Shown: positions 40,047-64,000, counted from the first letter of the stretch. The stretch: DNA of 64,000 nt from Schmidtea polychroa (GCA_044892525.1 CM097885.1:22198001-22262000), one strand, 5' to 3'. The notes: a model not told the origin generated them from the letters alone. Numbers and translations are program-made.

Positions 40047-43632
<3,586 letters not shown>

Positions 43633-55029: not shown

Positions 55030-55201
55030 TTGTCATTTCCATTTTACCATACTTACTATTTGAATCATTTAGAATACAATGATATCGTGTTAATGCATTT
55101 ATCAAAGCCGGCAAAAATTACCGAAAGTGTGAAACCAGTATGTGTGAGAAATAGAAAGCTACATGCTAAAAATCTTGAATGTATTGGAATGGGATGGGGC
55201 A
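55030..55201 (+). CDS. Serine protease exon with catalytic Asp
   Basis: YNDIVLMHLSKPAKITESVKPVCV..CIGMGWG; CAG acceptor at 55027-55029. Donor position inferred. Confidence 0.85.
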
Positions 55202-55272
55202 GTACTGTTTCCTTAACAGAAAGCAAGATGGCGTTTTTATTGCTAAACAAATATTAGTCGGTTTTATTTCAG

Positions 55273-55400
55273 ATTCACTTTCGCCGCGTCCAAAATATTT
55301 TTATGCAAAATATATTAACTATCTTGATCCAAATTGTTTATTTGAAGGCAGTGATATTAGAACGCTCTGTTTCTCTCCAATTACCGGATTAAGTTGTCGA
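55273..55400 (+). CDS. Serine protease exon ending just before the GDSGG motif
   Basis: ..C..LC..GLSCR| followed by a GTAAG donor at 55401; TTTCAG acceptor at 55271-55272. Confidence 0.75.
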
Positions 55401-56370
55401 GTAAGATTTTCTTTCTGTTCATATTTTGATCAAACTGATATATTCTTAATTTTCAATTCGAACATTTATTATGATTTACCTAACTTCTGCAGAACTTTCA
55501 GTAAATTTATTTAAAAAGCTTGACTGTGAATCAGTAAATATATCGATATTTTTGATTCAAGCTTTTTAATAAATACAATAGAAAAGAAATCAGTGGTGAA
55601 ATTTTAAAAAATTCAGTAATTTTATTGATATTTTACTTTTTTAAATGTCTATACGCGAATTAAGCATGTGAAATGTTTACACAGACTTGCGTCAATAGAG
55701 GCAAATGGATATTATCGCTATTATGTCACTACTAAACAAAATTTTATTGATAAGTATATAATGTTTGAACCTATCACCAAATTTAAAATGAATAAAATTG
55801 TTTTTCTATACAATTAACAATAAGGAACATTGAGAGTCAGATATTGTATCAACAGTAGTGGGGATATATCCCTCACGACCACAGGCCTCCCACTGTTTTC
55901 ATGTTTTATACCTATTTTTCCCCCATAAACGTAAAAAAAAACACTTAAAACCCCTAAAAACCTATATCTTTTAATTTCTTTATTCTGAAGACATTTTGGT
56001 TTCAAAATAAAGACTTAAAAAAACAACAAAAATATTAAAAAAACAACAAAAATATTAATAAAACGGGGAAAAAAATACTGATAAAACTATGAAAAACGTT
56101 TGTCGGCTTGCGGTCGTTAGGGATATAAACACACTACTTGAGGATGTCAACTAGCAAGTTGCTATTTGACTAATTTATGAAAATAGTAAAACTGCTCTGA
56201 GAGGACAGTGGTATTTTTTTTTTTTTTTTTTTCACTGTCCTCTCAACAGTTTTTTTTGATCCGGATCATTTTTTTTTTTTATTTCAACCTCTTTCGTTTA
56301 TCAAATCTCTTCCAATATACAAGCTGGCCAGACTTATATATCAGAATCAATTCGATAATAGCAGCACACC

Positions 56371-57188
56371 TTATTATTCGCTTCTCGCTCACGAAGTCGA
56401 TTTCATCGGCGTTTTAAGTGTGCTGCTCGAAAGTACAAATGAATTCGAAAGCGAATCCGAAAGAGGTCCGAAAACAACCAAGAAATAAATGTGCACATTA
56501 TAGAATCGATCCGGGGGTGTTCGAAAGACTGGTGGCGATAATTACCGGTTCGCCACCATCACCCGTTTCAATATTTTTTTTTTCATATTTATGTTTAAAA
56601 ATTAATTAAAAATTAATATTTTTTTTTTCATATTTATGTTTAAAAATTAATTAATTAATAAATAAATAAAATAAACAAGATTTATTTCCTAAGATACCCA
56701 CACTATATATTTTTTTAATATTTATTTTCAAAAATTATTTTCAATATTATTTTCAAATTTTTAATATTATTTTATGTTAAAAAAAAAACTAACCGTAGTT
56801 AGTTATTATTCGCTTCTCGCTCACGAAGTCGATTTCATCGGCGTTTTAAGTGTGCTGCTCGAAAGTACAAATGAATTCGAAAGCGAATCCGAAAGAGGTC
56901 CGAAAACAACCAAGAAATAAATGTGCACATTATAGAATCGATCCGGGGGTGTTCGAAAGACTGGTGGCGATAATTACCGGTTCGCCACCATCACCCGTTT
57001 CAATATTTTTTTTTCATATTTATGTTTAAAAATTAATTAATTAATAAATAAATAAAATAAACAAGATTTATTTCCTAAGATACCCACACTATATATTTTT
57101 TTAATATTTATTTTCAAAAATTATTTTCAATATTATTTTCAAATTTTTAATATTATTTTATGTTAAAAAAAAAACTAACCGTAGTTAG
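56371..57188. repeat. Near-perfect tandem duplication (~432 and ~386 bp units) in the Polinton terminal region
   Basis: Unit 1 is 56371-56802 (with an extra ~45-bp internal duplication); unit 2 is 56803-57188. Both start TTATTATTCGCTTCTCGCTC. Confidence 0.95.
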
Positions 57189-57250
57189 GATTTGAACCGC
57201 TAGCATTTGAACCACTGTGCCAGTCTATTCCCACTGCGCTATCGGAGTTC
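57165..57250 (-). ncRNA. Putative Pol III (type 2 promoter) small RNA, copy A
   Basis: Minus strand: A box TAGCGCAGTGG (57241-57231), B box GGTTCAAATCC (57198-57188), a second B-like box, 3' hairpin CTAAC-TACG-GTTAG, then T10. Confidence 0.6.
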
Positions 57251-57399
57251 GGATTTTTGTCATTTTTTAAATTTTTAATTAATAAAAAAATAAAATAAAA
57301 TAAATAAAATAAAATAAAAATAAATAAAATAAAATATAAATCTAAGATACCCACACCATTTTCAATATTATTTTCAAATTTTTAATATTATTTTATGTT

Positions 57400-57483
57400 A
57401 AAAAAAACTAACCGTAGTTAGGATTTGAACCGCTATCCATTTGAACCACTGTGCCAGTCTAGCCCACTGCGCTATCGGAGTTC
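57400..57483 (-). ncRNA. Putative Pol III small RNA, copy B
   Basis: Same architecture: A box 57474-57464, B box 57431-57421, cUACGg hairpin 57421-57408, T8. Confidence 0.6.
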
Positions 57484-57518
57484 GGATTTTTGTCATTTTT
57501 TAAAATTTTATTATAAAA

Positions 57519-58811
57519 ATGAATAATATAAATCTTAAAATTCAAGAAAAAAATAAATTAAATCTTGATTATAATAAAGAATTTACTCATGAAATCAAGA
57601 AAAATGATATTTTAAAAATCTCGCCAACTTCAGGATCTATTGCAAACTTAAATCGTAGGGGTGATATAGTTTTTCAATCTCTTCAAACATCAAACCCAAT
57701 AGATATTTGTAATGCCAAATTATATTATAAAATTGAATTAGAAATTGAAGCAAACAAAGATATAACCCTAGAAAATAATTTCTTTCCAAATTTATTCTCC
57801 AACATGAGATTAAAACTAGGATCATCAGAAATTGAAACTGTTTTGCATCCAGGAGTATATTCTACAATGTTAAATTTTATTTTAACTGGTTGTGATTATA
57901 AAAACGAATATGGTGAATTAACAGGTTGGATTCCTGATGTTAATAAAGGAGATTTAGATAAAGATGGTTTAGATATAAATTATGCTTACTATAAAAGAGC
58001 TGAACTTTATAAGTTGAAAAAATTTGAAGGTTATTTTGAATTAAAACACTTGTTCGGATTCCTTCAAAACTATAACCGGGTGCTCCATAATGTTTTTATA
58101 GAACTCATCTGTAATAGACTAGAAGGTGATAAAAGATTGTTCTATGGAGCTGCAGATACAAAAGCTAAATTAAAATTATCAACACTTGAATTGCATATAC
58201 CTGAATGGACATTAAATCCACATTCTGAAATCAAACTCCTTGAAAGATTAAATTCCAACAAATCTATAAATGTAAATTATTTAAATCGAATCTGTAGTGA
58301 ATTTAGTATGACAGAGGGTTCAACATATTCTATAAAGGTAGCAAATTTAGCATACCGACCAAGATATATCTTGATTGGATTCAAAGAAACAGATTCATCT
58401 TTCCAAAAAAATAACAATCTATTTATTCAAAAGATTGGAGATGATAATATAAAAACAATTCAAATTCAATTAAATAGTTATTATCCAATAAATAGAATGG
58501 AATTTAATATTGAAAATAATGAAAACATATTCCCATATCTAAATTATATTGAAACATGTTATGATTTCAAAGTTGAACCGCAATTAAGTTTAGAAGATTT
58601 CAAAAATTTATATTCTATATTTTGTATAAATGTATCAGACCAAGATGATCGCCTAGCTATAAATAATGTTGATGTTACACTTCATATAACAAAGGATTCT
58701 AATTTTAAAGCTAAAGTATATACATTAATATTAGAAGAAAAGAAAATAGAAATGAAATTATATGGTGGAAAGATTTCAATTATTGAAAATGTTAGGGAAG
58801 ATTCTTCATAA
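57519..58811 (+). CDS. Polinton major capsid protein (double jelly-roll)
   Basis: 430-aa intact ORF with Polinton MCP-like motifs: NNFFPNLFS.MRL.LG..EIE, PRYILIGF, YYP, F..LYSIFCINVS.Q. Confidence 0.85.
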   Translation: MNNINLKIQEKNKLNLDYNKEFTHEIKKNDILKISPTSGSIANLNRRGDIVFQSLQTSNPIDICNAKLYYKIELEIEANKDITLENNFFPNLFSNMRLKLGSSEIETVLHPGVYSTMLNFILTGCDYKNEYGELTGWIPDVNKGDLDKDGLDINYAYYKRAELYKLKKFEGYFELKHLFGFLQNYNRVLHNVFIELICNRLEGDKRLFYGAADTKAKLKLSTLELHIPEWTLNPHSEIKLLERLNSNKSINVNYLNRICSEFSMTEGSTYSIKVANLAYRPRYILIGFKETDSSFQKNNNLFIQKIGDDNIKTIQIQLNSYYPINRMEFNIENNENIFPYLNYIETCYDFKVEPQLSLEDFKNLYSIFCINVSDQDDRLAINNVDVTLHITKDSNFKAKVYTLILEEKKIEMKLYGGKISIIENVREDSS

Positions 58812-58840
58812 GTAGATTCCCCCATAAAAAAACTTTTAAA

Positions 58841-60232
58841 ATGAGTAAATATTGGACATGTGAAAGTTGTAATTGTCAAGTTACAAGACATCACAAAGCA
58901 AGTCATCTCAAAACTAAAAAACATACGAGAGTTGATATTACAGGAGGCGACCTACAATCTTCAAAAACAACATCTACAATATTAAAACCTTTTACTACAA
59001 AAAAATATCTAGGTGAAAGACATTTATTCCGTCACAATTATACTGGACCAGGAACAAGATTAGATATTAGATTAGATGAAAATAATAATCCTAAACAAGG
59101 AGAAGAACCAATAAATAGAATCGACCAAGCAGCTTTAAAACATGACATTGCTTACAACTCTGAAGATCTTAGAGATAGACATGTTGCTGATGTGAATTTA
59201 ATACATGATTTAAATAATATACAAAATCCATCAAGCAAGGAAAAGATTCAAAGAGCTCTAGTTAAATTAGCAATGAAAGGTAAGATTTTCATAGGAGCAG
59301 GACTTCCTAGAAAAGCAAAAGATGTTGCTAATAAAAGGATTATTGAACAAGCAGACGTTGAAAGATCCCTTGAGAATCAACTCTTTGAGAATAAACCCTT
59401 ACAAACCCCAACAGAATCACAAATAAAATATGCCAACGAATTACACCATGAATTTAGAAAAAATAAAAAATATTTAAAAGTTCAAGTACATGAAAAAGAT
59501 CAAACATGGTCTGCTGATTTAGTCTTTATGCCAACCAAATCATCAGACCCTGAAAAATATAAAATAATTTTAACAGTAATAGATTTATATACAAGATTTG
59601 CTTTTGCAAGATGTTTAGAAAATAAAACAGGATATTCTATTACAGAAGCATTTGAAAATATATTTGAACAACATCAAAGAATTCCAAAATATTTATGGTG
59701 TGATAAAGGAACAGAATTTTATAACAAAGTTTTTACAAAGTTTTTAAATGAAAATGATATTAAATTATATTCAACAGAAAACGAAGGAAAAGCAGTCGTA
59801 GTTGAAAGATTAAATAGAACATTAAAAAATAAAATGTGGAAATATTTTACTGCTATTGGAAAACAAAAATGGAACAATGAATTGTTACAAAAGATTTTAA
59901 ATGAATATAATAATGATGTACATAGTTCTATAAAATTAACACCCTTAAATGCTTCCTTGAATCCTGAAACCATTAAAGTGGTAAATATTGAAAATGATGT
60001 TATTGTTGATACAACCCCTATAAAACCAAAGTTTAAAATTGGTGACCGAGTAAGAATATTTAAATATAAAAATAAATTTGAAAAAGGATTCACAGCAAAA
60101 TGGACAAATGAAATTTTTATTATAAATAAAATACATTATACAACTCCAATAACATATAGCATCATTGATTTAAATAATGAAAAAATATTAGGTAGATTTT
60201 ATAATAATGAACTACAGAAAACAGATTTTTAA
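58841..60232 (+). CDS. Zinc finger-phospholipase A2-retroviral-type integrase fusion
   Basis: CxxC..H..H N-terminus. Parvoviral PLA2 motifs YTGPG, DxxAxxHDxxY and AD. DDE triad WSADL / CDKGTEF / VVERLNRT (D-33-E). C-terminal PKFKIGDRVRI..FEKG..WT.E.F. No chromodomain. Confidence 0.92.
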   Translation: MSKYWTCESCNCQVTRHHKASHLKTKKHTRVDITGGDLQSSKTTSTILKPFTTKKYLGERHLFRHNYTGPGTRLDIRLDENNNPKQGEEPINRIDQAALKHDIAYNSEDLRDRHVADVNLIHDLNNIQNPSSKEKIQRALVKLAMKGKIFIGAGLPRKAKDVANKRIIEQADVERSLENQLFENKPLQTPTESQIKYANELHHEFRKNKKYLKVQVHEKDQTWSADLVFMPTKSSDPEKYKIILTVIDLYTRFAFARCLENKTGYSITEAFENIFEQHQRIPKYLWCDKGTEFYNKVFTKFLNENDIKLYSTENEGKAVVVERLNRTLKNKMWKYFTAIGKQKWNNELLQKILNEYNNDVHSSIKLTPLNASLNPETIKVVNIENDVIVDTTPIKPKFKIGDRVRIFKYKNKFEKGFTAKWTNEIFIINKIHYTTPITYSIIDLNNEKILGRFYNNELQKTDF

Positions 60233-61023
60233 GTCGACAAGCCCTAAAACAAACTTTTTCCATATTTCAGCTTCTTCTCTATCCAAATAAATATAATTAT
60301 ATTTTTCTTTCCAATGATTATCAACAAACATATCAAACATATTCTTATCAGGTTCAACATTTGAAAATAAATCATTATAAATCATATTCTTATCACGCTT
60401 GTCTAATTTAAAAATATAAAACAATTAGAATTATTTCTTATAGAGTTTTTATCTAAAGCATAATATGTTTGAGATATATAAATAACATTACAATTATTAT
60501 GTCGACCTCGTGTAAAGTAACTCTTTTGAATCTCTTGATTTTTCATATTAACAACATCATCAAATATAACTAGATTCTTTTTATCTTTAGGAAGTAAATC
60601 ACAATGTAAAACATCTTCAGGTTTATTAGAGAATAAGATCTGGATTCCATCCCCTATATAATCATTTTTATTACTAATATCTGATTCTAAAATCTTTTCC
60701 TTGTACCAATCAACCATATCACAAGGATGAAAAACCTCTTCGGGATATGTATGTTGATTTTTAAAAATATCAATTATAGCTTATTTAGTTAATTTATTTT
60801 CAAATCCACATTTCAAAAGTTGTAATTCCGGTTGGTTAATGGTTGTAGAATAAAAGATTAAATTATTATAATCCAAAAAACCATCTTCTAATAACATTCT
60901 CATAAGAAGAACATTCTTTCCACATCCAGAAGATCCAATAATTAAGCATCTAAAATTATCAGGAAATACTTTATTATTAAATTTAGATTTATGTCTATTT
61001 AAAATTGGTTTCCAAGTATCCAT
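60212..61023 (-). pseudogene. A32/FtsK-like packaging ATPase, disrupted
   Basis: Walker A GSSGCGKN, Walker B LVIFDD, FTRGRHNN and ISQ motifs. In-frame TAA at 60781-60783 and a 1-nt frameshift near 60410. Confidence 0.9.
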
Positions 61024-61039
61024 TTTTATTTATTATAAA

Positions 61040-61555
61040 ATGACAACACAAAACCCTACAGAGGAATCTTTGCAAGAATTAATAAATTCAAATAAAAATA
61101 AATCAGTAGTAATCTCTGGTAAAAAATATTTTATTGGAAAACATGTAAAAGAACAAGTTAAAGAAAAACTAAAGGAAGGATGGATTCTTCCTCTGGCGGC
61201 TTTAATACCTGCAATCATTGCCGGACTATCAGGTGCTGCTGGAATAGCTGGAGGAATTGCAACTACAGTTCAAAAAGCTAAAGAATCTCAAAAGACAGAC
61301 CTAGAAAAAGAAAAACTACAAACTGAAATCGAGAAAATGAAGGGAGGGAAAGGTCTTTATCTTGATCCTTATAAAGGTCGTGGTTTAAATGATTTTTTAA
61401 AAAATCAAATTTCTACATCTGAATCTTTATCTTCAAAAGATAAAGATGATTTAAAAAAAATATGTAAATCTTTAAAAAATGGATGTCTTTGTAAAATTAA
61501 AAATGGTAAAGGTTTATACTTGAAACCCTTTCCAACGGATCCTTTACCAAAATGA
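61040..61555 (+). CDS. pX-like (adenovirus protein X/mu-like) membrane-active core protein
   Basis: EGWILPLAALIPAIIAGLSGAAGIAGGIA hydrophobic segment and two GKGLYL.P repeats, as in the X part of adintovirus PLA2X proteins. Confidence 0.7.
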   Translation: MTTQNPTEESLQELINSNKNKSVVISGKKYFIGKHVKEQVKEKLKEGWILPLAALIPAIIAGLSGAAGIAGGIATTVQKAKESQKTDLEKEKLQTEIEKMKGGKGLYLDPYKGRGLNDFLKNQISTSESLSSKDKDDLKKICKSLKNGCLCKIKNGKGLYLKPFPTDPLPK

Positions 61556-61577
61556 TACCATTTTTAATACCATTAAA

Positions 61578-62375
61578 ATGGTATATGAAGAAAGATTAGC
61601 ACTTTTAAAAAAATTACAATCAGAACAAGATAAATATAATAAAAAAGATACAACTCAACACGCTGAATCTATAATATTAAATGAGGTAATCCAACAACAA
61701 CAAGGACCAACAATTAAAGCCATAAAAGAGTTAGAAGTTTTAAAATTTAAAGAGTTGGAAGATAAACAAGATTTAAAAGAATTACCATGGTTGGAAGATT
61801 TAAATATAAAACCTCTTATACTTGATCCTAAAATTAATGTGAGTTTAAGTAAAACAATTAAACCTACATTTAATATTAATGTTGAAGGATATCAAATAAT
61901 AACAATTAATAAACATGACTTTCTGTTATATTTAAATTCAGAAAATAAATCACGTATTCATTCACAAAATGTTTATAATACTAAACACCTAGATTTTGAA
62001 TTTACAGATGATTTTTATGGATTAGTTTGTGGATATCCCTCAGAGAATGTTGATCTTCTAGAAATTAAAAAATATTTAAATTTAATAGAATTAGTACATG
62101 GTAGTGCTAAAGCAAAACATATTCAAGATTTAAAGAAATATTTAAATAAAAATGAAAGGGGTTATATTGTCACAGAAGGAGAGGGCCAGGGTCAGGGCCA
62201 GAGAAAGGGTAAGGAGATAAACCCAATCAATCTTTTTATTGAATTAAGAAAACTATTAGCAGCAAGGAAAGCAGGACATAATAATTTAGATTCTGATATT
62301 TTAAAGATTTCTAAAGAATTATTAAAACAAGGAATAATTTCAAAAGATAAATTTAATAAGTATACGAAGTTATAA
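61578..62375 (+). CDS. Conserved Polinton protein of unknown function
   Basis: 265-aa intact ORF. C-terminal NPINL..ELRKLLAARKAGHNN...ELLKQGII resembles a motif recurrent in invertebrate Polintons. Confidence 0.65.
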   Translation: MVYEERLALLKKLQSEQDKYNKKDTTQHAESIILNEVIQQQQGPTIKAIKELEVLKFKELEDKQDLKELPWLEDLNIKPLILDPKINVSLSKTIKPTFNINVEGYQIITINKHDFLLYLNSENKSRIHSQNVYNTKHLDFEFTDDFYGLVCGYPSENVDLLEIKKYLNLIELVHGSAKAKHIQDLKKYLNKNERGYIVTEGEGQGQGQRKGKEINPINLFIELRKLLAARKAGHNNLDSDILKISKELLKQGIISKDKFNKYTKL

Positions 62376-62397
62376 ATACGAAGTTATAAAATATAAA

Positions 62398-62820
62398 ATG
62401 ACTCCTTCAATATTAGATTTTTTAAAAACATTTGGAATAACAAATTTTGATTTAAAAGATTATGCAGATTATTTAAATTTAAAAATAAAAATATTAATGA
62501 ATGATGAATTGTCGAGTCTGAAAGAAGACACTCCAAAGAATATCATTATAAATTATCAAAATTCAAATGAAAAAGGATCTCATTGGGTTTGTATATATAA
62601 TAAATCTATATACTTTGATTCTTTTGGGATTAAACCCACTAAAGAAGTTGAAGACTATCTCTCGGACTACACTTTTAATTCTTTACAAGTTCAACCTAAT
62701 AATACTAAAATATGTGGTATTTTAAGCTTATATGTTTTGTATAGATTGAATAAATCTAAAGGAGAAGGTTTCACTTCCTTAATCCAAGAAATTTATAATG
62801 ATTTAAAATCTATACTATGA
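62398..62820 (+). CDS. Adenain-like cysteine maturation protease
   Basis: Catalytic motifs GSHWV, YFDSFG, QVQ and CG. Confidence 0.92.
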   Translation: MTPSILDFLKTFGITNFDLKDYADYLNLKIKILMNDELSSLKEDTPKNIIINYQNSNEKGSHWVCIYNKSIYFDSFGIKPTKEVEDYLSDYTFNSLQVQPNNTKICGILSLYVLYRLNKSKGEGFTSLIQEIYNDLKSIL

Positions 62821-63587
62821 AAATGGAGCTTCGCAACCTTCCGGAAGATAATTTAAAAAAAATGGTAAACATAATGTCAGATAAATATTCAAGAACTTTA
62901 TCTATAAATTCAAAAGAATCAGACTTTACTATAAACTTTCAAGATTCAATTAAATTAGATCAAAATTTAAATTATGAATTAGGACTATTATGGTTTTGTG
63001 CTTATAATACTATTTTTAATATAACTAAAGATAATAACATATTTTATTATATAAGCCCAAAATCTACAGATAAGATTATAATAACAATCGAACCCGGAGC
63101 TTATGAGATAAAAGATTTAAATAATATACTTTCTAAAAAAACAAATGGAGTCATTAAAATTAAAATGGATTTACCAACTTCAAAATGTATAATGACTTTA
63201 GAGAATATAGGAATTCATTTTCAAAATAATAGTTTCTTTAGAACAATTTTAGGATTTACACGAAACCATTATATCACACCTGTAGTTGAGAATATAACAT
63301 CAGAAAATATTATAAAAATAATAAATACAAACACAATAAATATTCATTGTGATTGTATAACAGGTTCTTATAATAATGGTAAACAAACAAATGTTTTATA
63401 TTCCTTTCCCTCAAACACAGTTCCTATGGGATATAAAATAGTTGAAAGAATGAATCCTCCAAATTATTTACCTTTATGTAGAAAATATATAATGGATATT
63501 AATTTTAAAATTCTTAATCAAGAAGGAGAATTGATTGATTTTAATGGAGAAGAGATTTCAATGTATTTACATTTGAAACAGGTTTGA
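62817..63587 (+). CDS. Polinton minor capsid (penton) protein
   Basis: YNTIFNIT..NN, PGAYEI.DLN, I.IHCD.I.GSY.NG, P.GYKIVE, NQ.G.LIDFNGE.I...LHL. 4-bp ATGA overlap with the protease gene. Confidence 0.88.
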   Translation: MKMELRNLPEDNLKKMVNIMSDKYSRTLSINSKESDFTINFQDSIKLDQNLNYELGLLWFCAYNTIFNITKDNNIFYYISPKSTDKIIITIEPGAYEIKDLNNILSKKTNGVIKIKMDLPTSKCIMTLENIGIHFQNNSFFRTILGFTRNHYITPVVENITSENIIKIINTNTINIHCDCITGSYNNGKQTNVLYSFPSNTVPMGYKIVERMNPPNYLPLCRKYIMDINFKILNQEGELIDFNGEEISMYLHLKQV

Positions 63588-63611
63588 AGATTCATTTTAA
63601 ATTATTAATAA

Positions 63612-64000
63612 ATGAGTTCTTATATTCCATGTAATAGAGGTGGTGGAACAATAAAAACAGGGTTTAATACAGAAGAAATATTAACTTTAACAGAAAATAA
63701 ATATATTAATGAAAGAGGTGATTCAATGAAGGGTGATTTAATTTTAAATGGACACAAGATAAAAGAATTATCTTTTCCAACTGATGAAGCTGATGCAGTT
63801 AATAAGAAATATGTAGATGGTGTTAAAAAATATACTGATTTAACAACAACAAGAATTGAAAGTTCATTAACAACAAAAATTGATTCAATGGAATCAAAGC
63901 TTAATAATATCGAACAACGATTTAATGATAAATTTGACAAGTTACAAAGTCTGTTAACTGAACAAGTTGTAAAGTTAAATACTAGCATATTAAATTCTAA
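63612..64000 (+). CDS. Fiber-like protein (5' part; open at the window end)
   Basis: Manual translation MSSYIPCNRGGG..GDSMKGDLILNGHKIKELSFPTDEADAVNKKYVD, then a heptad-like segment; no stop before 64000. Confidence 0.7.
   Translation, partial: MSSYIPCNRGGGTIKTGFNTEEILTLTENKYINERGDSMKGDLILNGHKIKELSFPTDEADAVNKKYVDGVKKYTDLTTTRIESSLTTKIDSMESKLNNIEQRFNDKFDKLQSLLTEQVVKLNTSILNS

What the first reader, a model, noticed from the sequence alone, without database searches (positions are those of the whole stretch)
55854..64000. Young, nearly intact endogenous Polinton/adintovirus with a complete virion module
Seen: MCP, penton, protease, pX-like protein, integrase, an unknown ORF and a fiber-like ORF are all open and tightly packed, with gaps under 30 bp or overlaps. 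This contrasts with the decayed TEs around them. Inference: a recent insertion from a family that may still form particles. Gene order, with MCP first after the terminus, could define the lineage.
Basis: partly seen in the sequence, partly recalled or inferred. Interest (0 to 1): 0.75.

Follow-up and report, generated by a model that had tools for sequence, protein, structure and literature searches.

The report
Polinton arm with phospholipase-integrase fusion
This is the left half of a recent but already damaged copy of a virus-like jumping element whose DNA-inserting enzyme is joined to a membrane-breaching enzyme, and relatives appear to make the same joined protein by a ribosome slip, much as retroviruses do.

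Summary
The element is real: capsid, penton, protease, pX-like, integrase, unknown and fibre-like frames are open. 'Nearly intact with a complete virion module' is not. The family is young (capsid 3-10 of ~430 residues from siblings), but this copy as assembled is defective. Polymerase, right end and target duplication lie outside the window. A second, inverted terminus-like motif 285 bp inside blurs the end call.

The interesting part is the integrase gene: zinc finger + parvovirus-type PLA2 + integrase in one frame, with catalytic residues kept and no chromodomain. Among 48 related loci with PLA2 directly before the integrase, 23 are fused and 16 have the integrase in the -1 frame. Of 15 testable -1 loci, 14 carry an in-frame slippery heptamer just after a conserved GxG (fused: 1 of 23) and 14 lack an upstream Met. 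This points to a Gag-Pol-like route for loading integrase into virions, which eight literature searches did not find described. The mechanism is inferred, not shown.

The parts
55848..55853 (+). Flank hexamer ATCAAC; would be the target-site duplication if 55854 is the integrated end (untested)
   Evidence: sequence; right end outside the window
55854..56138 (.). 285-bp unit bounded by AGTAGT and ACTACT, with diverged inverted arms (55854-55919 / 56071-56138) and no 6-bp duplication around it: either an internal inverted copy in the left TIR or a mini-element
   Evidence: 76% over 68 nt, E 1e-6, 0 of 2000 shuffles
56139..57518 (.). Non-coding leader with hairpins, exact internal duplications (212 nt x2 and 183 nt x2 at 100%) and a 233-nt period repeat (1.9 copies, 90%)
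   Evidence: no tRNA and no Rfam match at gathering score in the parts scanned
57519..58811 (+). Major capsid protein, double jelly roll, 430 aa; one residue shorter near aa 320 than its siblings
   Evidence: PF21738 E 4e-25; 35 homologues; gap private to the window
58841..60232 (+). Zn-finger-like (aa ~4-28) + GG motif (aa 35-36) + parvovirus-type PLA2 (aa 61-141; YTGPG loop, HDxxY) + GxG (aa 152-154) + rve integrase (D226, D288, E322) in one 463-aa frame; no chromodomain
60248..61023 (-). A32/FtsK-type packaging ATPase, broken: in-frame stop at 60783-60781 and frame change at about 60409-60424
61040..61555 (+). pX-like basic/hydrophobic core protein, 171 aa, with several GG/GxG motifs
   Evidence: PF05829 E 0.015, below cut-off; 3 of 84 loci give tblastn hits; motifs
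61578..62375 (+). Conserved protein of unknown function, 265 aa; invariant GxG followed by a conserved C-terminal helical domain
   Evidence: 36 homologues at E<=0.001; alignment A5; no Pfam family above noise; no Atlas hit
62398..62820 (+). Adenain/Ulp1-type cysteine protease, 140 aa; H62, D74, Q99, C106
   Evidence: invariant in 15 aligned homologues; reading these residues as the adenain catalytic set is recalled knowledge; Pfam hit only weak (C39 E 0.021)
62817..63587 (+). [quoted passage not shown]
   Evidence: AlphaFold2 pLDDT 80.8; Foldseek best hit mavirus penton 6g41, E 7e-11
63612..64000 (+). Start of a fibre-like protein, cut by the window end
   Evidence: 55% over 38 aa, E 4e-10, to the L054 protein that carries PF03906

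Best explanation
The stretch is the left arm of an endogenous Polinton/Maverick, of the phospholipase-bearing kind, from a recently active family. As assembled, this copy cannot make a working packaging ATPase, so it is a defective provirus that could at most be complemented by sister copies. SHOWN: gene identities, the ATPase breaks, low divergence among siblings, and a widespread one-frame PLA2-integrase gene with both active sites kept. STRONGLY INDICATED by sequence: in several other branches the same two domains lie in frames 0 and -1, with a slippery heptamer right after the conserved GxG and no usable Met for the integrase. There the integrase is probably made only as a PLA2-integrase read-through by programmed -1 ribosomal frameshifting; the window's clade has the link hard-wired in frame. 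INFERRED: PLA2 is a virion core and entry protein. Tying the integrase to it loads the integrase into the particle, and the element's cysteine protease frees zinc finger, PLA2 and integrase at the conserved GG|X and GX|G motifs, so an incoming genome arrives with its own integrase. This is a Gag/Gag-Pol logic in a dsDNA virus-like element. Odds by step: Polinton arm 0.97; ATPase truly broken in this copy 0.7; programmed -1 frameshift in relatives 0.8; packaging and cleavage purpose 0.5.
For: Identity. Youth and decay. Fusion: 106 of the best 120 listed hits carry both PF00665 and PF08398. G35, G69, H101, D102, Y105, G152, D226, D288 and E322 are invariant in 29 aligned sequences. Frames: of 84 loci, 48 have PLA2 directly before the integrase: 23 fused, 16 in -1, 3 in +1, 6 in frame with a stop. 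Slippery heptamer within about 8 codons of GxG in 14 of 15 testable -1 loci and 1 of 23 fused loci; background 56 of 11,609 codon positions, about 0.043 per locus. Nine of 15 have A AAA AAC in phase. No Met precedes the conserved E-x-H motif in 14 of 15, and in 11 the first Met lies 30 residues after it, past the first catalytic Asp. The integrase frame is open across the hit in 14 of 15 despite 24 A/T runs of 6 or more inside. The -1 state needs at least 6 changes on starred branches. Mavirus integrase is a virion protein and its protease cuts GG|X and GX|G (PMC6048507, passages). Intact Mavericks lack introns (PMC8097293, passages).
Against: No read, RNA, ribosome or proteomic data. The window's own gene needs no frameshift, so the recoding claim concerns relatives only. 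A stable hairpin behind the slip site was found in only 3 of 14 loci (z -1.6, -3.9, -5.6; 60 shuffles each; pseudoknots untested). The -1 loci are not independent: 19 pairs are over 70% identical. L005 (fused, A9 run) is sister to L068 (-1, A10 run), and the 3 '+1' loci sit among -1 loci, which shows that homopolymer errors or slippage do occur at this site. 35 of 84 loci give no PLA2 hit at all, so the link is not universal. The homologue search was biased to fused proteins by query and length. The tree is a quick tree without bootstrap. Polishing of multi-copy viral inserts can create false frameshifts (PMC10120064, passage), so the ATPase breaks may be assembly errors.
Confidence: 0.7

Rival explanations
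1. This copy is fully intact; the ATPase stop, the frame change and the one-residue MCP gap are assembly or polishing errors in a multi-copy region.
For: 10 of 10 sibling ATPases are open. The frame change lies at a 5-base A run. Such artefacts are reported for multi-copy endogenous viruses (PMC10120064). Six other complete frames are open, and 5 of them hold runs of 7-8 A or T.
Against: Three lesions of three kinds (nonsense, frame change, in-frame codon loss) plus 6 private substitutions in PLA2-integrase. Longer homopolymers nearby are not shifted, and the nonsense site is not in a long run. Most Maverick copies in vertebrate genomes are defective (96%, PMC8097293).
Confidence: 0.25
2. The -1 arrangement in relatives is not programmed: it comes from single-base losses in an A run of an ordinarily fused gene (sequencing error or decay), or from two separate genes with a non-AUG or spliced start.
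For: All 15 testable -1 loci have an A run of 6 or more at the site. There is a fused/-1 sister pair (L005/L068), three +1 loci, and mostly no stable downstream hairpin. L054 has a Met upstream of the integrase.
Against: Of 18 loci with such a run at this site, only 1 is fused, 15 are -1 and 2 are +1, whereas 24 comparable runs inside the same integrase frames leave 14 of 15 open. Nine loci from several branches share the exact in-phase A AAA AAC. Fused loci lack the run (1 of 23).
Confidence: 0.2
3. 55854-56138 is a separate small non-autonomous element, and the large element's true left end is lost or lies elsewhere; alternatively the contig is mis-joined near 55.85-56.14 kb.
For: Two facing terminus-like motifs with 76% inverted similarity. 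The leader holds exact duplications that could be assembly products. Earlier unchecked notes report gene-less palindromic Polinton derivatives in this genome.
Against: There is no 6-bp duplication around the 285-bp unit (ATCAAC against TGAGGA) and no second copy in the window.
Confidence: 0.3
4. The PLA2-integrase link is an incidental, neutral fusion of neighbouring genes with no role in packaging.
For: Gene order is labile among relatives. 35 of 84 integrase loci have no PLA2 hit. Insect Mavericks have separate PLA2 and integrase genes (PMC5803895, passages).
Against: Both active sites and the two flanking Gly motifs are invariant across sequences only 40-58% identical. The link is kept by two different means, in frame and -1, in interleaved branches.
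Confidence: 0.25

Closest known systems
Polintons/Mavericks (class Polintoviricetes), group 2 with a phospholipase (10.64898/2026.06.19.733378, section 5)
   Same: DJR capsid, penton, A32-type ATPase, cysteine protease, rve integrase, phospholipase, AG-type terminus; a fused PLA2-integrase relative (L011) lies beside a pPolB (PF03175 E 1e-25)
   Different: PLA2 is in one frame with the integrase; the ATPase is broken in this copy; replicase unseen; group placement by phylogeny not tested
Alpha (Mayetiola-class) adintovirus virion module with PLA2X (PMC8502044; PMC11071296 section 16)
   Same: Parvovirus-type PLA2, pX-like protein, adenain, hexon, penton, FtsK, fibre-like gene
   Different: There PLA2 carries a C-terminal pX domain and the integrase a chromodomain. 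Here PLA2 is fused to a chromodomain-less integrase and pX is a separate gene. The frameshifts proposed there concern penton C-termini and hexon-adenain, not PLA2-integrase.
Mavirus virophage (PMC6048507)
   Same: Penton fold (E 7e-11); rve integrase (structure match E 5.5e-12) that is packaged in virions; protease cutting GG|X and GX|G; a packaged, cleaved hydrolase (MV13)
   Different: Mavirus integrase (358 aa) and hydrolase are separate genes; it is a protist virophage that depends on a giant virus
Retroviral Gag/Gag-Pol expression by -1 frameshifting (recalled; abstracts seen)
   Same: A structural protein linked to the integrase by a -1 slip on X XXY YYZ, or in frame, then cut by the element's protease
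   Different: dsDNA jelly-roll element; the upstream partner is a phospholipase; cysteine protease; nothing here is shown experimentally

Membership tests
Polinton/Maverick | rve integrase with DDE triad | tested here: met
   PF00665 E 6e-12; D226/D288/E322 invariant in 29 sequences
Polinton/Maverick | Protein-primed family B polymerase | not testable with these tools
   Outside the window and no genome held; present beside a fused relative, L011
Polinton/Maverick | Paired TIRs of 100-1500 bp and 5-8 bp TSD (10.1101/2023.08.22.554363) | tested here: inconclusive
   Left terminus-like motif present, with an internal inverted homologue; right end outside the window
Polinton/Maverick | Morphogenesis genes: DJR MCP, penton, protease, packaging ATPase | tested here: met
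   All four genes present; the ATPase is broken
'Intact' Maverick (PMC8097293 criteria) | All core ORFs uninterrupted | tested here: not met
   ATPase with a stop and a frame change
Adintovirus (PMC11071296 section 16) | Integrase with C-terminal chromodomain | tested here: not met
   No PF00385; the protein ends where P0128 and P0149 continue into a chromo-like tail
Adintovirus (PMC11071296 section 16) | PolB with N-terminal OTU-like domain | not testable with these tools
   Outside the window
Adintovirus (PMC11071296 section 16) | Hexon reciprocally recognised by BLASTp against the reference hexons | not tested
   Reference sequences were not among the session's stored proteins
Alpha adintovirus virion module (PMC8502044) | PLA2X: PLA2 with a C-terminal pX-like domain | tested here: not met
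   PLA2 is followed by the integrase; the pX-like hit is in a separate gene
Group 2 Maverick-Polinton (10.64898/2026.06.19.733378) | Placement by MCP clustering and ATPase phylogeny | not tested
   Only the accessory trait (phospholipase present) was seen
Programmed -1 frameshift site (relatives, not the window) | In-frame X XXY YYZ heptamer before the frame-0 stop, with an open -1 frame | tested here: met
   14 of 15 loci against 0.043 background and 1 of 23 fused; the heptamer rule is recalled
Programmed -1 frameshift site (relatives, not the window) | Stimulatory RNA structure 3' of the slip site | tested here: inconclusive
   z <= -1.6 in 3 of 14; pseudoknots and protein stimulators untested

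The most novel reading that the evidence does not exclude
A broad branch of polintoviruses expresses its integrase only as a phospholipase-integrase polyprotein, by programmed -1 ribosomal frameshifting in some lineages and by an in-frame fusion in others such as this one. It thereby loads the integrase into the virion through a core/entry protein and releases it with the viral protease: a Gag-Pol strategy evolved in a dsDNA jelly-roll virus.
Probability: 0.5. Interest if true: 0.8.

Novelty: new variant of a known kind. Interest (0 to 1): 0.58.

Why it matters
A young, damaged Polinton copy is ordinary, above all in a genome already noted as Polinton-rich. The PLA2-integrase link is what matters. 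Particles of animal Mavericks had not been observed when PMC8097293 was written (abstract), and how an incoming Polinton genome gets its integrase is open. A conserved link between a virion entry enzyme and the integrase, kept either in frame or by a ribosomal slip and flanked by protease-type motifs, is independent sequence evidence for an extracellular, infectious stage. It also gives cheap direct tests (frameshift reporter, in vitro cleavage, transframe peptide) and means that many Polinton integrases annotated as stand-alone or N-terminally truncated may be mis-annotated.

Tried and rejected
- No whole genome is held for this window, so copy number, pPolB, the right TIR and the TSD could not be sought.
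- No read-level data were obtained, so depth, the 55.85-kb junction and the ATPase breaks are unchecked in reads.
- The run search listed no RNA holder on record.
- Single-sequence MCP scans of metagenome and viral contigs and the MCP-profile scan of viral contigs found no relative. A terminal-motif scan of viral contigs found 0 matches. The terminal 497 nt match none of the 84 loci.
- An MCP profile against PDB sequences gave only chance hits.
- The 265-aa protein stays unexplained: no Pfam family in more than 3 of 20 members and no Atlas hit. The Atlas hits for the PLA2 part scored 0.80 and 0.78, leads only.
- A VA-RNA/tRNA-like gene in the leader was considered because of A-box- and B-box-like motifs (recalled consensus) and dropped: ARAGORN 0 genes, Rfam only far below gathering scores, folding z 0.22 and -1.11.
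- The ATAAAC box of earlier notes is in 0 of 8 upstream regions.
- The first fusion count miscalled hits with a stop in the leading part and was replaced.
- Rows dropped: L082 (PLA2 on the opposite strand) before the count of 48; L067 (no GxG in a broken PLA2 frame) before the count of 15. Three fused loci (L004, L022, L030) have no GxG in frame, so the fused control is effectively 1 of 20.
- The careful tree did not finish; the quick tree was used.
- No earlier scan note matched the PLA2-integrase by sequence or held all the words of the fusion/frameshift queries.
Full report
OBSERVATION. The listed genes exist at the stated place. Pfam supports the MCP (PF21738, E 4e-25) and the integrase (PF00665, E 6e-12), and weakly the pX-like gene (E 0.015). 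The penton has no Pfam hit, but its AlphaFold2 model (pLDDT 80.8, 15-row alignment) matches the mavirus penton best (E 7e-11). The protease keeps His62, Asp74, Gln99 and Cys106 in 15 of 15 aligned sequences; reading these as the adenain catalytic set is recalled knowledge. The last frame shares a tail-fibre repeat with a protein of L054 (E 4e-10). The flanking TEs are fragments, and a trypsin-like host exon lies at 55060-55218 (E 8e-7). The host looks like an AT-rich animal; I did not identify it.

The 807 nt between the integrase and the pX-like gene hold a minus-strand A32-type ATPase. It has an in-frame stop at 60783-60781 and changes frame at about 60409-60424. A 259-aa database protein is 99% identical over the first 205 residues and continues in the other frame. 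All 10 members of its cluster are open, 257-264 aa long and 90.4-99.6% alike; a cluster of predicted proteins favours open copies. The window's MCP lacks one residue present in 8 of 9 siblings and in 24 of 24 other aligned homologues, and PLA2-integrase has 6 substitutions not shared by the 2-3 siblings that cover them. So the family is young (MCP 3-10 differences in ~430 residues from 7 full-length siblings; penton identical to one), but this copy, as assembled, cannot package DNA on its own. Assembly error remains possible (PMC10120064, passage) and could not be checked in reads.

THE END. AGTAGT at 55854 is one of 27 such hexamers in the window (16.7 expected). Better evidence is an inverted homologue, 56071-56138, ending in ACTACT (76% over 68 nt; 0 of 2000 shuffles). 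The 285-bp unit between them has no 6-bp duplication around it. It is either an internal inverted copy in a long TIR or a separate mini-element; only the right end can decide. The leader also has exact duplications of 212 and 183 nt.

THE INTEGRASE GENE. The 463-aa frame is zinc-finger-like region + PLA2 (PF08398, E 1e-8) + integrase, with no chromodomain. The fusion is widespread: 106 of the best 120 of 1124 hits carry both families (biased by query and length window). In 29 aligned sequences, mostly 40-58% identical to the window, the PLA2 loop Gly and HDxxY, the integrase DDE, and two Gly positions flanking PLA2 (G35, G152) are invariant. Motif counts over the 120 hits: HDxxY 114; of these, Ca loop 101, GxG after PLA2 94, chromo-like tail 9. 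One fused relative (L011) lies beside a pPolB.

FRAMES IN RELATIVES. Thirty-five give no PLA2 hit and one has it on the other strand. Of the other 48, 23 are fused, 16 have the integrase in the -1 frame, 3 in +1, and 6 are in frame with a stop. One -1 locus was dropped for a broken PLA2 frame.

Fourteen of the remaining 15 have an in-frame X XXY YYZ heptamer within about 8 codons after the conserved GxG, against 1 of 23 fused loci (3 of them without a GxG) and a background of 0.043 per locus. Nine have A AAA AAC exactly in phase. In 14 of 15 no Met precedes the conserved E-x-H motif, and in 11 the first Met is 30 residues later, beyond the first catalytic Asp, so ordinary initiation would give a dead enzyme. 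Homopolymer error explains this poorly. Of 18 loci with an A run of 6 or more at the site, 15 are -1, 2 are +1 and 1 is fused, while 24 such runs inside the same integrase frames leave 14 of 15 open.

Against the frameshift reading: only 3 of 14 loci have a stable hairpin downstream, 19 pairs of -1 loci exceed 70% identity, and one fused/-1 sister pair and the +1 loci show that slippage or error occurs here. On a quick tree of 70 integrases (15 database proteins picked by hand, 13 PLA2-less loci, no bootstrap), the -1 state needs at least 6 changes on starred branches, and the window sits in a starred clade of 19 rows, 18 of them fused.

MECHANISM. In mavirus the integrase is found in virions, and the protease cuts GG|X and GX|G, including in a packaged hydrolase (PMC6048507, passages). 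PLA2 is thought to disrupt membranes during entry (PMC8502044, passages). The window's protein has GG|D at 35-37 and GA|G at 152-154 on either side of PLA2, and the pX-like and unknown proteins carry similar motifs. I infer a polyprotein: PLA2 carries the integrase into the particle and the protease releases both. Frameshifting lineages would make much PLA2 and little fusion; the window's clade makes them one to one. The frames and motifs are shown; translation, cleavage and packaging are not.

COMPARISON AND NOVELTY. The element works like a Polinton/Maverick and meets the tested features of that group, with replicase and right end untested. It fails two tested adintovirus features, the chromodomain and the PLA2X architecture. 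PLA2 in Polintons is known (PMC3671162, PMC8502044, PMC5803895, 10.64898/2026.06.19.733378), and possible -1 slips were suggested for adintovirus penton and hexon-adenain (PMC11071296, section 16). I found no description of a PLA2-integrase fusion or frameshift in searches.

What I saw of the papers: passages of PMC3671162, PMC11131425, 10.64898/2026.10.13.758929, PMC5803895, PMC11161782, 10.1101/2023.08.22.554363, 10.1101/068312, PMC6048507, PMC8097293, PMC8363768, PMC10120064 and PMC10675110; passages plus one section each of PMC11071296 and 10.64898/2026.06.19.733378; passages plus a search of one truncated supplement file of PMC8502044. Repbase reports, the 2006-2007 founding papers, figure maps, other supplements and GenBank annotations were not seen and may record the link. 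Gene order is labile: MCP directly precedes PLA2-integrase in 2 of 14 printed MCP-bearing loci.

VERDICT. As given, the finding is an ordinary young but defective Polinton arm. The value lies in the PLA2-integrase link and the probable -1 recoding in its relatives: a new variant of a known kind, interest 0.58.

Noticed in passing
window 57489-57518, 61548-61577, 63582-63611: CATTTT lies 12-30 nt upstream of the ATG in 3 of the 6 genes that are not part of the divergent ATPase/pX pair (background 0.038 per position; P about 0.001, motif chosen after the fact); 7 of 8 starts read AAATG. Possible compact initiator element.
   Followed up: partly
window 40781-42413: Perfect (TGA)544 microsatellite, 1.6 kb at 100%, lying between two long transposase-like frames (40165-40698 and 42748-43629); may be an assembly feature.
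   Followed up: no
window 55060-55813: Trypsin-like host gene fragments; a frame that could be its last exon ends about 40 bp before the element's terminus. Exon structure not verified.
   Followed up: partly
window 56144-56575: Cluster of hairpins in the leader, including a ~22-bp stem around a T run at 56186-56255; only chance-level Rfam hits.
   Followed up: partly
window 57180-57240 and its repeat near 57415-57475, minus strand: A-box- and B-box-like motifs (recalled consensus) in two copies; no tRNA and no stable fold.
   Followed up: yes
L014:4458-5957, L023:7459-8925, L077:274-1803: In these relatives the protease hit and the integrase lie in one open frame of 449-510 aa, i.e. a protease-integrase fusion instead of PLA2-integrase: a second polyprotein arrangement around the same integrase.
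   Followed up: no
L036:8542-12642, L043:3-3668: Frames of 1367 and 1222 aa with only an endonuclease VII hit; probably divergent pPolB genes, unconfirmed.
   Followed up: no
L006:1-1191: Ankyrin-repeat frame directly beside a fused PLA2-integrase.
   Followed up: no
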